Positions 56,120-64,000 of a stretch of DNA of 64,000 nt are shown here, one piece after another. The notes beneath the pieces are model-generated. The model did no database searches and was not told the DNA's origin. It saw nothing but the letters and a program-made list of their open reading frames with translations. Both the position numbers and the translations under genes were made by a program. Position 1 is the stretch's first letter, and each line of letters begins with the position of its first letter. Location of the stretch: assembly GCF_056746865.1 (NCBI RefSeq), contig NZ_CM163382.1; one strand, given 5' to 3'.

Positions 56120-57616
56120 TCAGAACCAGGTTTCCATCTGAACGCCAAAATTCCATTCCCCGCCTGCATTAAACCCGCTACCGCCGAAAGCATCATCACT
56201 GGCGTAGTTATCCAGTCTGCTGCTCCAGTCCATCCAGGTGGCGAACAGACGCAGTTCCGGACGGCTGAAGAAGTCCCCCAGACCTCCTGCCTTGAGGGTG
56301 GGCGCAAACGTCAGCTTGTAAAAACTGCCGTTAACAGCATTGCGGTCCTTATACCCTTCAGGTTTCAGATCCATGTACTGGTAAGTGCCCTCAAACGCCA
56401 GCGCAAAATTCTGCGTCACCTCCTTAATCAAGCGGGTGTTCAGGGTCACCCATTCATAACTGTCTCCACGGGCATAGCGATCCTTACTGCCCTGCGCCAT
56501 GACTGACGGGGCGATATGCCAGCCGTTTCCGAGCGGGGTGGTACCATATGCAGCAAGACGCCAAGTATCCGCATCACTGCGTAGTGCACCGTCAGAGCCA
56601 ATCCCCTTCACTTCCGCCCCCAGACCATGCCCGTACAGAAGTGCTATTTTCGCCGTTCCCTCACGTAATCCCCAGAAACTGTCATTATGAAGTCCGGCCA
56701 ACACATGCACACCGTGGCTGGCGGCACTGGCATGGATAAGGTCGCCATTATTGTCCCTGCGGTCATCATTATCCTTTGCCCGCATACCGCTGACCATAAG
56801 CTGGAACGGCCCGGCAAAGTGGTTCATGGTAAGGATATAGTTCTGGACGTTGTTATCGATATCCTCCATCTCCCCGAAATTGCGTCCATACAGGGAGAAG
56901 TTACTGCGCAGAGTGTCGTTCCATTTCACGTCATAGATACCGCCCCCGGTTCCGCCGAGGAAAACCACGTCCGAGTCCAGCCAGTGGATATCAAAGTTGT
57001 CACGATCGAAACGTTTACCCGCCCATACCGTACTGTGCTTCAGCGGCCCGGTGAAGTCCGGCAGATTTCCCAGTTCAGCCACCACCTGGCGGACGTTAAG
57101 GTCACTGGAGTTCGCCGACCAGTCGTTATAGGTTTTCTGACCATCCGCCAGCATCACCTTAAACCGGGTGGTGGCCCCGCTTTCGAGCGTCTTTTTGTGC
57201 TCAAACACGGTTTCCACATAAGTGTCTCCCTCATTCCCGAGGCGCCCGACCGAGCCACCGGTCTCTCCGGCAGGCGTCAGATACGGACCACTTTTGCTGC
57301 CGGATGCGGCATCGTTCATCAGCAGACCCGAGCGGGCATAGCCGTGAAACTCAAAACCACTATTGTCCGCTTTCTTTTCCGGTGGTACGGATACGGTCTG
57401 TGGCACAACAGGTTGTGTCGCCGGGGTGGCGGCCAGTTGCTGCACCTGCTGTTCTGTAGCGGTTGCCCGTGATTCAGCCTTCTGAGCACGGGTTTCAGCA
57501 TCCTGAAGCCGTTTTTCCAGGGCCGCCAGCCGGGCTTCAATACTGTCGGTATTCCCCGCCGCAAAGACCGGGGAACAGGCCAGCAGAATGGCACACGAGA
57601 GAAGGTGTTTTTTCAT
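56120..57616 (-). CDS. Sugar-specific outer-membrane porin (ScrY/RafY, LamB family)
   Basis: 498 aa; signal peptide, N-terminal coiled-coil extension (as in ScrY), C-terminal ...ETWF. Confidence 0.85.
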
Positions 57617-57653
57617 TTTTATATCCTTGTAAAAATAGAGGTATTGTTGACAG

Positions 57654-57667
57654 CTAAATCGATTTAG
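57654..57667. promoter_or_regulatory. Perfect 14-bp palindrome ctaaatcgatttag upstream of the porin gene (candidate repressor operator)
   Basis: Read directly, about 40-50 bp upstream of the porin ATG; function inferred. Confidence 0.35.
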
Positions 57668-57715
57668 TCACCCGCAACAAAAATGACGTGCACAACGGTT
57701 ACGGGCAGGAAACGG

Positions 57716-61263: not shown

Positions 61264-62537
61264 AAGCGAACCTCCGTCTGTGCTGTAGCGGTTTCTGCTG
61301 ACGGGGCAGCCGTTTTACGGGTACTGCTCAGGGTGAAAGCCGATAACACGGTGACCGCAAGGACAATACCGCCCAGAACCAGATAGGTGTTCTGGAACCC
61401 CATGCGGTCATACAGGTGACCTGCAAAGGTTGAGAGGAATATCGCCGCCAGTTGTTTGGAGAACTGAAAGCCAATCAGATAAATGGTGGCCGACAGCCGG
61501 GTATCAAACACGCCGGTGATATACTTGAACGCACCAACCAGCAGGAATGGGACTTCAAGGGCATGCAGCATTTTCAGGATCACCACTTCAGTAGCCGTGG
61601 TGGCAAAGGCCGACCCTGTGATGCGGATGGTCATAATCAGACCCGCGACAAGCAGTGTGTTTTTGGCACCAATGCGGTTGATTATCCAGGGGGAGCAGAA
61701 CATGATGATGGCATTGCAAATCTCGCCAGCCGTGGTGGCAAAACCAAATGCCCGGATCCCCGCCTGCGGCGTGTCAAAAAATGCACGGAAGAACGTGGCA
61801 AACTGCTGGTCAAACACGTCATAGACGCAGGCCACCCCAATCATGTAAAGCACGAACATCCACATCTGACGCATACGAAACAGACTGAACACCATTCCGG
61901 CGGAAATCACGGGCGAGTTGGCACCCAGCGCATTCATGACCATCGCTGTCTGACTGGTTCCGGGACGCGCCAGCGCCACCAGAAGGACCAGCAGCAATGC
62001 GCAGCCGGACCCCATCCAGAATACCAGGGACGGATCCACGTTGAAAAGCAGCCCTGCCGTGGTGGCACACAGCGCCCAGCCCAGACAGCCGAACATCCGG
62101 GCCTTACCGTATTCAAATCCGCTGCTGCGGCTGACACGTTCAATATAGGCTTCGATGGCACCGGCTCCCGCAGAAAAAACGAAGCCGATAAAAATCCCGC
62201 CGCTCAGTGCTCCGGCCCAGATGTTGAACCGCAGCAGCGGCGCAAAAACGTACAGAAAGAACGGTGCAAACAGGACCAGCAGCAGGCTGATGATCCACAT
62301 CAGGTGTTTTTTCAGGCCAAGACGGTCTGAGATGACCCCCAGCAGCGGCTGGAAGCTGATGGCAAACAGGGAGAGGCATGAAAAAACAATCCCGGTATCC
62401 GTTTTACTCAGCCCCACAATGTCTGACAGCCAGACGGGCAGAAACGGGAAACAGGTTGCCATGATGAAAAAGTAGAGAAAAAAGAACAGACCAAATATCC
62501 AGAAATCGGGGTTTTTATGAGTACTGACAGTATTCAT
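61260..62537 (-). CDS. rafB: LacY-family oligosaccharide:H+ symporter (RafB-like)
   Basis: About 425 aa from MNTVSTHKNPDFWIFGLFFFLYFFIM...; stop overlaps the invertase start (ATGA). Confidence 0.88.
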   Translation of the reverse strand: MNTVSTHKNPDFWIFGLFFFLYFFIMATCFPFLPVWLSDIVGLSKTDTGIVFSCLSLFAISFQPLLGVISDRLGLKKHLMWIISLLLVLFAPFFLYVFAPLLRFNIWAGALSGGIFIGFVFSAGAGAIEAYIERVSRSSGFEYGKARMFGCLGWALCATTAGLLFNVDPSLVFWMGSGCALLLVLLVALARPGTSQTAMVMNALGANSPVISAGMVFSLFRMRQMWMFVLYMIGVACVYDVFDQQFATFFRAFFDTPQAGIRAFGFATTAGEICNAIIMFCSPWIINRIGAKNTLLVAGLIMTIRITGSAFATTATEVVILKMLHALEVPFLLVGAFKYITGVFDTRLSATIYLIGFQFSKQLAAIFLSTFAGHLYDRMGFQNTYLVLGGIVLAVTVLSAFTLSSTRKTAAPSAETATAQTEVRL

Positions 62538-62591
62538 TATTGTTATCCTCACGGGACTGAGTGCAGGGAGCCGTGACCGGCTCCGGTCCTT

Positions 62592-64000
62592 TTATGCCAA
62601 ACGTTCAAGGGCAATCAGCATGGCGCTTTCCGGATCCAGTACGGGAAGCTGAATACCGGCCTGCGCCAGCCATTCCCCACTGATGTCGGAGGTCTGGTTC
62701 ATCCAGCCGGGCAGCCTGCGCATGGTATGCCCGCCTTCACCGACCAGCTGAATATCCGGATGGTCAACAACACGAAGCCGGTAACGGGCCTGTGGTGCCA
62801 GCCCCGGAAAACGTAGAGCACCCGGCAGGGTGTGATCCGGCATGGCAAGCTGGCTCACCAGGAAGAGCGCCTGCGACTGATCCGGGCTGACCACCCCCTG
62901 CACCTGTGTCGCCGCATCCGGCATATCCACCCGCCATAGGGTGCCCGTGTGGATAAGCTGCCGCCATTCTTTGTAGAGCGAGGCATAGCGGCGGTAACCG
63001 GCGGATTCCTCTTCTCCGGCCGTTACCGGATCCAGCTCCAGTCCCATATGACCGAACAGGGCCGTCAGACCGCGAAAGGCAATGCTGTGCTGCCGGAAGG
63101 TGGCATGGCAGCGATGATGACCGATGTGTGCCCCCATAACCTCCGGCGGGAAAAAGTAACTCATGCCACGCTGTATGGTGCAGCGCTCCAGGGCGTCATT
63201 GTTGTCAGAAGCCCAGAAGCGGTGCGTGCGGGTCAGAACCTCAAAGTCGATACGTCCACCGCCGGAAGCGCAGGACTCAAACTCAACACGGGGAAAACGT
63301 TCGCGCAGGAGATCCAGCAGCCGGTAAAACTGACGGGTCTGCGCGTCCGCCGCCGCCCGACCTTCATGCCCGGCCTGGACCAGCTCGCGGTTCATGTCCC
63401 ATTTCACATAGTCAACTGGGTGTTCGCCCAGCAGCCATAAACAGCGTTCATAAATGTAAGCAAAGGCCTCAGGAATGTTCAGGTTGAGAACATACTGATG
63501 TCTCCCGGTTGGTTGTGTGTACCCCGGCATTGACAGTACCCAGTCAGGATGGCGGCGAAAGAGGTCAGAGTCCGGGTTAATCATTTCCGGTTCCACCCAG
63601 ATACCGAACTCCATGCCGAGTGATTTCACATGGTTAATCACCGGCATCAGTCCGTCCGGATACTTCTGTTCATCCAGATACCAGTCGCCCAGAGCCGCAT
63701 GGTCATCATTGCGTCCCTTAAACCAGCCGTCGTCGATAATGAAACGTTCAACGCCAAGCGCTGCCGCACGTCCGGCCATCTGCATGATGTAGTTCGGGTC
63801 GTGGTCAAAATAAATACCTTCCCAGGTATTGAGGTGCACCGGACGGGGTTTCTGCTCAGGAAAACGGATGATTTCATCGCGCAGAAAACGGTGGTACTGC
63901 TGACTCATACCATTGAGCCCCTCCGGGGAATAGCTGGCGTACAGCCACGGCGTGTACACGGTCTCATCCTTCTTCAGGGCTTTTTCTCCGGGCATCCACA
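62592..64000 (-). CDS. rafA: GH36 alpha-galactosidase (RafA-like), partial (N-terminus beyond window end)
   Basis: C-terminal ~470 aa of a GH36 enzyme; frame open to the window edge. Confidence 0.85.
   Translation of the reverse strand, partial: WMPGEKALKKDETVYTPWLYASYSPEGLNGMSQQYHRFLRDEIIRFPEQKPRPVHLNTWEGIYFDHDPNYIMQMAGRAAALGVERFIIDDGWFKGRNDDHAALGDWYLDEQKYPDGLMPVINHVKSLGMEFGIWVEPEMINPDSDLFRRHPDWVLSMPGYTQPTGRHQYVLNLNIPEAFAYIYERCLWLLGEHPVDYVKWDMNRELVQAGHEGRAAADAQTRQFYRLLDLLRERFPRVEFESCASGGGRIDFEVLTRTHRFWASDNNDALERCTIQRGMSYFFPPEVMGAHIGHHRCHATFRQHSIAFRGLTALFGHMGLELDPVTAGEEESAGYRRYASLYKEWRQLIHTGTLWRVDMPDAATQVQGVVSPDQSQALFLVSQLAMPDHTLPGALRFPGLAPQARYRLRVVDHPDIQLVGEGGHTMRRLPGWMNQTSDISGEWLAQAGIQLPVLDPESAMLIALERLA

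What the first reader, a model, noticed from the sequence alone, without database searches (positions are those of the whole stretch)
56120..64000. Hybrid raffinose/sucrose cluster with a stand-alone EIIA-Glc paralog and no PTS permease
GH36 alpha-galactosidase, LacY-type permease and GH32 invertase (raf-like) are followed by a Crr-like EIIA, a decayed ORF region, a fructokinase and a ScrY-type porin (scr-like). No EIIBC gene is in the window. EIIA-Glc normally inhibits LacY-type permeases (inducer exclusion) and some LacS/RafP permeases carry fused IIA domains, so a dedicated EIIA next to the permease may be a local regulator.
Basis: partly seen in the sequence, partly recalled or inferred. 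Interest (0 to 1): 0.55.

Follow-up and report, generated by a model that had tools for sequence, protein, structure and literature searches.

The report
Raffinose operon with its own Crr paralog
This is a mobile E. coli gene cluster for raffinose and sucrose use, built from parts of two known operons, that carries a private, intact copy of the sugar-signalling protein EIIA-Glc, which recurs next to the invertase gene in two other raffinose clusters and whose role has not been studied.

Summary
On the minus strand of 56120-64000 lie rafA (GH36, cut by the window end), rafB (LacY-type permease), rafD (GH32 invertase), a 171-aa EIIA-Glc paralog, a disrupted DUF2913 gene, a ScrK-type fructokinase and a true ScrY porin.

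No EIIBC gene is in the window or in its flanks in sibling genomes. A LacI-type rafR lies just beyond the window end. Both catalytic histidines of the EIIA are kept.

The cluster is a non-PTS raffinose pathway. A raf operon (83-89% protein identity to the classical plasmid raf genes) recruited scrK and scrY from a scrKYABR regulon. It sits between IS elements in an island at the ileX tRNA gene.

New here: the EIIA belongs to a small, distinct clade of Crr paralogs.
- I found three lineages (E. coli/Salmonella, Citrobacter braakii, Klebsiella michiganensis); the clade has 500/500 bootstrap support and a shared one-residue insertion.
- Each lies directly after a RafD-type invertase, with a spacer of about 63 nt.
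- Each is downstream of RafR-type operators; in the window type these precede rafA.
- It is under purifying selection (dN/dS 0.13).

Its most likely role is an operon-encoded, PTS-responsive regulator of RafB. This is inferred, not shown. I rate it a new variant of a known kind, of moderate interest.

The parts
62592..64000 (-). rafA, GH36 alpha-galactosidase. Only the C-terminal 467 codons are in the window; the gene runs past the window end (full length 2127 nt in sibling copies).
   Evidence: It is 89% identical to classical plasmid RafA and 76% to the K. michiganensis/C. braakii RafA, which carry Pfam Glyco_hydro_36N/Melibiase/36C.
61260..62537 (-). rafB, LacY-family raffinose/oligosaccharide:H+ symporter. 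This uses the RefSeq start; the mechanical ORF extends to 62552.
   Evidence: TIGR00882, 679 bits; PRK09528, 633 bits. It is 88-90% identical to classical RafB. Its stop overlaps the rafD start by 4 nt.
59833..61263 (-). rafD, GH32 invertase of the RafD/CscA type.
   Evidence: TIGR01322, 445 bits. It is 83% identical to classical RafD and only 40% to ScrB sucrose-6-phosphate hydrolase. DNA homology to classical raf plasmids ends at its stop codon.
59803..59823 (-). 9-bp G+C-rich hairpin in the 63-nt rafD-EIIA spacer, with no proper T tract. It may be an attenuator or an mRNA-stabilising stem.
   Evidence: The K. michiganensis locus also has a hairpin at the same place.
59254..59769 (-). Stand-alone EIIA-Glc (Crr) paralog, 171 aa, with its own Shine-Dalgarno sequence.
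   Evidence: NF006962, 235.7 bits, cut-off 212. (59% identity to Crr). (His75/His90, hydrophobic patch and N-terminal amphipathic helix kept; clade-specific changes). (clade bootstrap 500/500). (dN/dS 0.13 in the sister lineages).
58672..59248 (-). DUF2913 pseudogene. It starts 5 nt after the EIIA stop and is broken by a frame-shifting deletion near 59040-59060.
   Evidence: RefSeq annotates two DUF2913 fragments. No intact copy closer than about 50% identity exists in 5.8 billion proteins.
57716..58642 (-). scrK-type fructokinase.
   Evidence: NF006957, 477 bits, cut-off 450. It is 65% identical to the ScrK of a complete scrKYABR regulon.
57654..57667 (-). Palindrome CTAAATCGATTTAG in the 99-nt scrK-scrY spacer. 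It looks like a LacI-family (ScrR-type) operator remnant.
   Evidence: Read directly from the sequence. That it is an operator is my inference.
56120..57616 (-). scrY, sucrose porin with an N-terminal coiled-coil extension. It serves as the outer-membrane entry for raffinose and sucrose in place of RafY.
   Evidence: E = 8e-222 to PDB 1A0S over residues 86-498. (78% identity to ScrY of pCC32).
56089..56114 (-). Perfect 11-bp hairpin just after the scrY stop. It marks the end of the cluster.
   Evidence: Read directly from the sequence.
55104..55883 (+). Truncated IS1414 (IS256-family) transposase gene. It forms the boundary where scrA-scrB-scrR would follow in a complete scr regulon.
   Evidence: RefSeq annotation, and the complete regulon.

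Best explanation
The region is a complete, PTS-independent pathway for raffinose (and sucrose), probably transcribed from the RafR-controlled promoter in front of rafA.

The pathway runs as follows:
- ScrY lets the sugar through the outer membrane.
- RafB imports it with protons.
- RafA splits off galactose.
- RafD splits the remaining sucrose.
- ScrK phosphorylates the fructose.

It was assembled from a raf operon and the first two genes of a scrKYABR regulon, whose PTS permease part is absent. It now moves between IS elements on islands and plasmids of E. coli and Salmonella.

The EIIA is not a leftover of the sucrose PTS. It belongs to the raf side, as the partner gene of the invertase, and is a member of a small, separately evolving clade of Crr paralogs.

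Most likely (inferred) mechanism:
- EI and HPr phosphorylate it on His90, as they do Crr.
- In its unphosphorylated form it binds RafB and slows uptake. Classical RafB is reported to be inhibited by EIIA-Glc (recalled, not read here).
- Because it is made in fixed proportion to the permease, glucose or energy-state control of raffinose uptake would persist however strongly the mobile operon is expressed, and the host's own Crr pool would not be titrated.

The gene content, ancestry, conservation, co-regulation signals and intact catalytic residues are shown. Phosphorylation, the binding partner and the direction of the effect are inferred.
For: - Gene identities.
- Operon layout: all genes are on one strand with spacers of -4, 63, 5, 29 and 99 nt and no strong terminator.
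- rafR and a pair of RafR-type operators precede rafA in sibling copies.
- Homology to classical raf plasmids stops exactly at the rafD stop. Those plasmids go straight to rafY and have no EIIA.
- No ScrA-like sequence is in the window or its flanks.
- The EIIA clade: in 5.8 billion proteins, the only sequences found with the clade's signature are the window type, P0200 (C. braakii) and P0211/P0203 (K. michiganensis).
- Both other lineages lie directly after a RafD-type GH32 in raf clusters, with the same spacer of about 63 nt and their own ribosome-binding site.
- The three group together in 500 of 500 bootstraps. They share a one-residue insertion and substitutions at positions that are invariant in 14 housekeeping Crr proteins.
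- dN/dS is 0.13 for the EIIA against 0.086 for RafD in the same pair of loci.
- In those two loci the invertase-EIIA unit has its own copies of the operator found in front of rafA.
- His75, His90, Phe41, Ile45, Val46, Gly47, Ala76, Ser78, Phe88, Val96 and the amphipathic N-terminus are kept.
- Background from memory, not read here: Titgemeyer, Mason and Saier 1994 (J Bacteriol 176:543) reported that EIIA-Glc inhibits RafB, and inducer exclusion is stoichiometric.
Against: - No experiment or interaction prediction links this protein to RafB.
- The gene that always accompanies it is the invertase, not the permease. In K. michiganensis and C. braakii the invertase-EIIA unit has a different history from rafB (dS 1.1-1.2 against 0.28).
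- Classical raf plasmids work without it.
- The clade has lost or reversed several acidic residues around the active site (E43G, E80K/R, D94N/S). From my recollection of the HPr-IIAGlc structure, these lie on the face that meets HPr. Phosphorylation by HPr could therefore be weaker, or the partner could be different.
- Only three lineages exist, so the association rests on few independent events.
- In the window type Phe71 is Leu.
Confidence: 0.45

Rival explanations
1. The EIIA is a spare phosphocarrier. It takes phosphate from HPr and passes it to an unlinked EIIBC that lacks its own IIA domain (ScrA, PtsG, MalX, TreB and the like). This would raise PTS capacity or allow phosphorylation of the glucose released inside the cell by the invertase.
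For: It passes the curated Crr model and keeps both histidines and the membrane-anchoring N-terminus that, as I recall, is needed for transfer to EIIB. scrK-scrY next to it come from a regulon whose permease ScrA depends on Crr.
Against: No EIIBC is in any of the three kinds of cluster. The two other lineages have no scr genes nearby, so the link is to raf, not scr. All hosts already have an abundant Crr. The rim of the interaction face is altered.
Confidence: 0.2
2. The EIIA acts on a different, cluster-specific target. It could control the RafD invertase allosterically (as Crr controls glycerol kinase). It could occupy RafB without inhibiting it. Or it could drive adenylate cyclase to keep the cAMP-dependent raf promoter on.
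For: The invariant neighbour is the invertase, and the invertase-EIIA pair travels and diverges as a unit. Clade-specific changes fall at positions invariant in housekeeping Crr, including acidic residues that I recall as rimming the active-site face. This fits a re-tuned partner surface.
Against: No GH32 enzyme is known to be controlled by an EIIA. Adjacency at the far end of an operon can be simple co-inheritance. There is no direct evidence of any kind.
Confidence: 0.2
3. The EIIA is a passenger with no present function in this cluster, like the broken DUF2913 gene beside it.
For: The neighbouring DUF2913 gene is decayed. The E. coli copies are 99-100% identical, so they are too young to show decay. 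Classical raf operons lack the gene.
Against: There are three divergent lineages with intact reading frames, dN/dS of 0.13, conserved catalytic residues, a conserved position and ribosome-binding site, and a dedicated operator-bearing promoter region in two lineages.
Confidence: 0.1
4. This is the remnant of an ordinary PTS operon whose EIIBC was lost or lies just outside the window.
For: scrA-scrB-scrR are missing after scrY, where an IS1414 fragment now sits.
Against: The EIIA is separated from scrK-scrY by a pseudogene and is attached to rafD in two clusters that have no scr genes. No EIIBC lies on either side in the island or plasmid copies. Complete scr regulons examined have no EIIA gene.
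Confidence: 0.05

Closest known systems
Plasmid raf operon of E. coli (pRSD2 type: rafR-rafA-rafB-rafD-rafY)
   Same: Same order rafR-rafA-rafB-rafD. RafA, RafB and RafD are 89%, 88-90% and 83% identical. A LacI-type repressor and paired operators precede rafA. It is IS-flanked and mobile.
   Different: After rafD, the classical operon goes straight to rafY, the classical raffinose porin gene. Here rafD is followed by an EIIA-Glc paralog, a DUF2913 pseudogene, a fructokinase and a ScrY-type porin. DNA identity is only about 80%.
Sucrose PTS regulon scrKYABR (pUR400, Klebsiella, pCC32)
   Same: scrK and scrY are in the same order. ScrY is 78% identical to that of pCC32 and aligns end to end with the pUR400 ScrY structure. 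A palindrome lies in the scrK-scrY spacer.
   Different: scrA (EIIBC), scrB and scrR are absent. Sucrose here is made inside the cell and split by a non-PTS invertase.
Crr (EIIA-Glc) and inducer exclusion of LacY, MelB, MalK, GlpK and RafB
   Same: Same fold family, above the curated Crr cut-off. Catalytic histidines, hydrophobic patch and N-terminal helix are kept.
   Different: It is not in the ptsH-ptsI-crr operon. It is 54-61% identical to housekeeping Crr proteins, which are themselves 72-93% alike. It has a one-residue insertion and altered acidic rim residues. It lies downstream of RafR-type operators.
LacS/RafP-type transporters of Gram-positive bacteria with a fused C-terminal IIA domain
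   Same: A raffinose or galactoside carrier is accompanied by an IIA-Glc-type domain made in fixed proportion to it.
   Different: In those, the IIA is fused to a GPH-family carrier. Here it is a separate gene, the carrier is of the LacY family, and the IIA is much closer to Crr. The resemblance is one of logic, not of descent. I did not test it with sequences.
Chromosomal csc regulon (cscB-cscK-cscA-cscR)
   Same: A LacY-family permease, an invertase of the same GH32 branch (52-73% identity) and a fructokinase.
   Different: It has no alpha-galactosidase, no porin and no EIIA in any of 80 species-representative loci.

Membership tests
EIIA-Glc / Crr family (Pfam PF00358; NCBIfam NF006962) | Sequence match above the curated family cut-off | tested here: met
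   235.7 bits against a cut-off of 212. 59% identity to E. coli Crr over the full length. The best PDB matches are IIAGlc entries.
EIIA-Glc / Crr family (Pfam PF00358; NCBIfam NF006962) | Phosphorylatable His90 and catalytic His75 | tested here: met
   TNHAFS and FVHFG are both present and sit in invariant columns of a 17-sequence alignment.
EIIA-Glc / Crr family (Pfam PF00358; NCBIfam NF006962) | N-terminal amphipathic membrane-anchor helix | tested here: met
   MGLLGRIKQLIS aligns with MGLFDKLKSLVS. Helix formation itself was not tested.
EIIA-Glc / Crr family (Pfam PF00358; NCBIfam NF006962) | Housekeeping ortholog: located in ptsH-ptsI-crr | tested here: not met
   It lies after rafD in a mobile raf cluster. 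A true ptsHI-crr context is shown for contrast. It is a paralog, not the housekeeping gene.
EIIA-Glc / Crr family (Pfam PF00358; NCBIfam NF006962) | Phosphotransfer from HPr and binding of target proteins | not testable with these tools
   This needs biochemistry.
raf operon (rafR-rafA-rafB-rafD-rafY) | GH36 alpha-galactosidase, LacY-family permease and GH32 invertase, in that order | tested here: met
raf operon (rafR-rafA-rafB-rafD-rafY) | LacI-type RafR and paired operators upstream of rafA | tested here: met
   These lie outside the window but are present in sibling copies that are 100% identical over the cluster.
raf operon (rafR-rafA-rafB-rafD-rafY) | RafY-type porin (Pfam Porin_8 in the related raf clusters) | tested here: not met
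   The porin here is a LamB/ScrY-type protein. Porin_8 proteins are in the K. michiganensis and C. braakii raf clusters. Classical plasmids carry a 'carbohydrate porin' gene directly after rafD, whose Pfam family I did not check.
scr regulon (scrKYABR, PTS-dependent sucrose use) | scrK fructokinase followed by scrY porin | tested here: met
scr regulon (scrKYABR, PTS-dependent sucrose use) | scrA EIIBC permease, scrB sucrose-6-phosphate hydrolase and scrR | tested here: not met
   A tblastn with the ScrA, ScrB and ScrR of a complete regulon finds no ScrA. The only ScrB-like hit is the 40%-identical RafD. There is no close ScrR: none in the window, and only 27-28% LacI-family matches in the flanks.
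IIA-fused galactoside carriers (LacS/RafP) | IIA domain fused to a GPH-family carrier | tested here: not met
   RafB is a 425-aa LacY-family protein with no extra domain. The EIIA is a separate gene two genes downstream.

The most novel reading that the evidence does not exclude
The raf-linked EIIA clade is a dedicated signalling subunit that evolved with a non-PTS invertase. It either controls RafD or RafB in a way that differs from Crr, or it insulates a horizontally mobile sugar operon from the host's global Crr circuit. On this reading its re-charged interaction face marks a new partner specificity, and orphan PTS domains in non-PTS sugar clusters would be a more general regulatory device. 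A stand-alone EIIB in a galactan cluster, on a plasmid that also carries this raf cluster, may be a second example.
Probability: 0.2. Interest if true: 0.65.

Novelty: new variant of a known kind. Interest (0 to 1): 0.45.

Why it matters
EIIA-Glc is the textbook hub of carbon catabolite control in enteric bacteria and is normally a single housekeeping gene. A second copy that is operon-encoded, raffinose-controlled, conserved and selected offers a natural experiment. It can show how a mobile catabolic operon plugs into, or shields itself from, the host's global sugar hierarchy.

The cluster is common: the whole 8 kb is present in 183 of 5426 complete E. coli genomes. Many of the best-matching records are poultry isolates, and poultry feed is rich in raffinose-family sugars. 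The regulator may therefore bear on gut colonisation. The test is a simple deletion and uptake experiment.

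Tried and rejected
1. DUF2913 as a functional partner of the EIIA. Its start lies 5 nt after the EIIA stop. But relatives (about 50% identity) sit in unrelated plasmid and island contexts with no EIIA nearby. The copy here is broken, and the two other EIIA lineages have no DUF2913. Rejected.

2. A wider invertase-EIIA association. A scan of one genome per species for RafD relatives returned 80 loci, mostly csc-type and none with an EIIA. The pairing is therefore rare, not general.

3. EIIA paralogs on plasmids. A tblastn over 72,556 plasmids found only this lineage, fused IIA domains of BglF/ScrA-type permeases, and chromosome pieces mislabelled as plasmids.

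4. P0193, P0239 and P0233 (64-66% identity, 167 aa) looked like possible relatives. They lack the clade signature, and P0193, the only one whose context I looked up, is not next to a GH32.

5. A remnant of scrA after scrY, or of rafB in front of the K. michiganensis and C. braakii invertase genes. None was found.

6. Literature. No paper in the held library mentions a crr-like gene in a raf cluster. I could not retrieve residue-level descriptions of the IIAGlc interfaces, so statements about which substitutions touch the HPr or target face rest on memory.

7. The RafR operator motif is absent from the window itself, because the rafA promoter lies beyond position 64000.

Full report
**What is there**

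On the minus strand of 56120-64000 the ORF list and family searches give seven genes:
- rafA, 62592 to beyond 64000, with only the last 467 codons in the window
- rafB, 61260-62537, LacY family (TIGR00882, 679 bits)
- rafD, 59833-61263, GH32 (TIGR01322, 445 bits)
- a Crr-like EIIA, 59254-59769 (NF006962, 235.7 bits against a cut-off of 212)
- two short ORFs, 59045-59248 and 58672-58983
- a fructokinase, 57716-58642 (NF006957, 477 bits)
- a LamB-family porin, 56120-57616

The porin is a true ScrY. It matches the sucrose porin structure 1A0S end to end (E = 8e-222) and has the N-terminal coiled-coil extension.

The two short ORFs are the halves of one DUF2913 gene. Compared with intact relatives, it is broken by a frame-shifting deletion of about eight codons.

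The EIIA is 59% identical to E. coli Crr and keeps His75 and His90.

**Surroundings**

The 8-kb cluster occurs at 99-100% identity in 183 of 5426 complete E. coli genomes and on nine E. coli/Salmonella plasmids.

In sibling copies the missing part of rafA is followed by a full-length LacI-family gene (rafR) and an IS3. Then comes the island backbone, up to a tyrosine integrase next to nfeF.

On the other side, scrY ends at a perfect hairpin (56089-56114). It is followed by a truncated IS1414 and an IS3 split by a group II intron.

The island starts in the window at a tRNA gene with anticodon CAT, which I take to be ileX from its position after rpoD (18003-18078).

A tblastn with ScrA from a complete scr regulon finds no EIIBC in the 64-kb window or in the flanks of three sibling copies. 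The annotations show none either.

**How the cluster was built**

RafA, RafB and RafD are 89%, 88-90% and 83% identical to those of the classical conjugative raf plasmids. DNA homology to those plasmids ends exactly at the rafD stop codon. The classical operon continues directly with rafY and has no EIIA.

ScrK and ScrY are 65% and 78% identical to the first two genes of a complete scrK-scrY-scrA-scrB-scrR regulon. The scrK-scrY spacer keeps a palindrome (CTAAATCGATTTAG, 57654-57667) that looks like a LacI-family operator.

The window cluster is thus a raf operon that acquired an outer-membrane sucrose/raffinose porin and a fructokinase from a sucrose PTS regulon, without the PTS permease. Functionally this gives a complete non-PTS route:
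- ScrY for entry through the outer membrane
- RafB for proton-coupled uptake
- RafA to release galactose and sucrose
- RafD to split the sucrose
- ScrK to phosphorylate the fructose

The classical operon lacks a fructokinase. All genes are co-oriented, with spacers of -4, 63, 5, 29 and 99 nt and no convincing terminator.

**The EIIA is a conserved raf component, not debris**

Among 5.8 billion proteins there is nothing between 98% and about 66% identity to it. The donor of the window-type cluster has therefore not been sequenced.

Two other stand-alone EIIA proteins, P0200 (Citrobacter braakii) and P0211 (Klebsiella michiganensis), are 62% and 60% identical to it. Each lies directly after a RafD-type GH32 (69% identical to the window RafD). 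Each sits in a cluster with rafR, rafA, rafB and a RafY-type porin.

The spacer is about 63 nt in all three, and each has its own ribosome-binding site.

In an alignment with 14 housekeeping Crr proteins from Enterobacterales, Vibrionales and Aeromonadales, the three share:
- a one-residue insertion after Pro55
- substitutions at positions that are otherwise invariant: F3L/M, E43G, E80K/R, D94N/S, E97D, K132Q/V, N142D/E, M143S/T

They group together in 500 of 500 neighbour-joining bootstraps. Housekeeping proteins are 72-93% identical to each other, while the paralogs are 54-66% identical to them.

A signature search over the 166 EIIA-like proteins retrieved finds no fourth lineage. These came from the best 120 hits of each of two searches, so a deeper lineage cannot be excluded.

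Between the Klebsiella and Citrobacter copies, dN/dS is 0.13, against 0.086 for RafD and 0.097 for RafB. The protein is therefore under purifying selection.

In the same pair the invertase-EIIA unit is much more diverged (dS 1.1-1.2) than rafB (dS 0.28). It also has a lower G+C content. This suggests the two genes move as a module.

**Co-regulation**

The motif CCGAAACGTTTCGG occurs as a pair 21 bp apart in front of rafA in the Klebsiella, Citrobacter and E. coli clusters. It occurs again in front of the invertase-EIIA unit in the Klebsiella locus (two copies) and the Citrobacter locus (one copy). Chance expectation is 0.07-0.15 matches per locus.

The EIIA is therefore downstream of RafR-type operators in every lineage. 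In the window type this is because it lies downstream of rafABD. The operators themselves are beyond position 64000.

**What it most likely does**

The protein keeps everything that defines an active Crr: both histidines, the hydrophobic patch (Phe41, Ile45, Val46, Phe88, Val96, with Phe71 changed to Leu in the window type only) and the amphipathic N-terminus. It also keeps Gly47, Ala76 and Ser78, which I recall as being needed for binding to lactose permease.

From the literature as I recall it (Titgemeyer, Mason and Saier 1994), classical RafB is inhibited by unphosphorylated EIIA-Glc, and inducer exclusion is stoichiometric.

The simplest reading is an operon-encoded, PTS-responsive brake on RafB, made in proportion to the permease. 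I give this about 0.45.

It remains an inference, and there are reasons for caution:
- The constant neighbour is the invertase.
- Classical raf operons do without the gene.
- The clade has lost or reversed three acidic residues that, as I recall the structures, rim the face used for HPr and target binding.

These points keep three rivals alive: a spare phosphocarrier for an unlinked EIIBC (0.2), a cluster-specific target such as RafD or a non-inhibitory or insulating role (0.2), and a passenger with no function (0.1). A remnant of an ordinary PTS operon is unlikely (0.05), because the gene is attached to rafD in clusters that have no scr genes.

**Comparison with what is known, and novelty**

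The cluster is annotated in RefSeq in hundreds of genomes, and its enzymes are ordinary. I found no paper mentioning a crr-like gene in a raf cluster.

A 2026 GWAS paper reports a gene it calls rafY, annotated 'sucrose porin precursor', as associated with chicken E. coli, and links it to raffinose-rich soy feed (PMC12987596). Many of the best-matching genomes here are also from poultry.

An accessory EIIA homologue that regulates glycerol kinase in Klebsiella is a precedent for regulatory PTS paralogs, although it belongs to a different EIIA family (PMC5770620).

I class the finding as a new variant of a known kind: a raf operon with a dedicated, separately evolving Crr paralog. Interest is moderate. 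It would rise if the protein proved to have a partner or effect different from Crr.

Noticed in passing
window 18003-18078, and from there to 64000: A tRNA gene with anticodon CAT lies after rpoD; I take it to be ileX from that position. It marks the start of an island of more than 46 kb. In sibling genomes the island ends at a tyrosine integrase next to nfeF. The raf cluster is one IS-bounded module within it.
   Followed up: partly
window 51547-54713: An IS3-family element is split by a group II intron, with the ltrA reverse transcriptase/maturase at 52116-53639. It lies next to a truncated IS1414 at 55104-55883.
   Followed up: no
window 23230-51117: Other island cargo: an Ag43-type autotransporter (23230-26151), a type I restriction-modification system (27585-33581), a DMSO/selenate-type reductase set (about 36185-41207), and a lactate module with lutABC-like genes, dld and a lactate permease (44515-51117). 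IS5 and IS3 copies lie between them.
   Followed up: no
L001 4975-5289 (plasmid NZ_MG591698): A stand-alone 104-aa EIIB domain of the PtsG type ends a non-PTS galactan cluster (ABC transporter, endo-galactanase, beta-galactosidase, maltoporin, LacI regulator). It lies about 5 kb from the raf cluster on the same plasmid. It is a second orphan PTS domain in a non-PTS sugar cluster.
   Followed up: partly
window 58672-59248; loci L003-L009: DUF2913 genes (function unknown) sit at the edges of cargo modules on plasmids and islands of Enterobacterales. One follows an idonate/gluconate-type cluster, another lies next to a type VI secretion cluster. The copy here has no intact relative closer than about 50% identity.
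   Followed up: partly
L010 6224-6258 and 10665-10699; L012 294-328 and 6281-6294; L002 13211-13245: A paired palindromic operator (CCGAAACGTTTCGG, two sites 21 bp apart) is shared by the rafA promoters of three diverged raf clusters. It is repeated in front of the separate invertase-EIIA unit.
   Followed up: yes
L002 26810-36001: In strain APEC O2-211 the same raf module is followed by genes annotated as a methylation-associated defence system (MADS). The module therefore sits in different island contexts in different strains.
   Followed up: no
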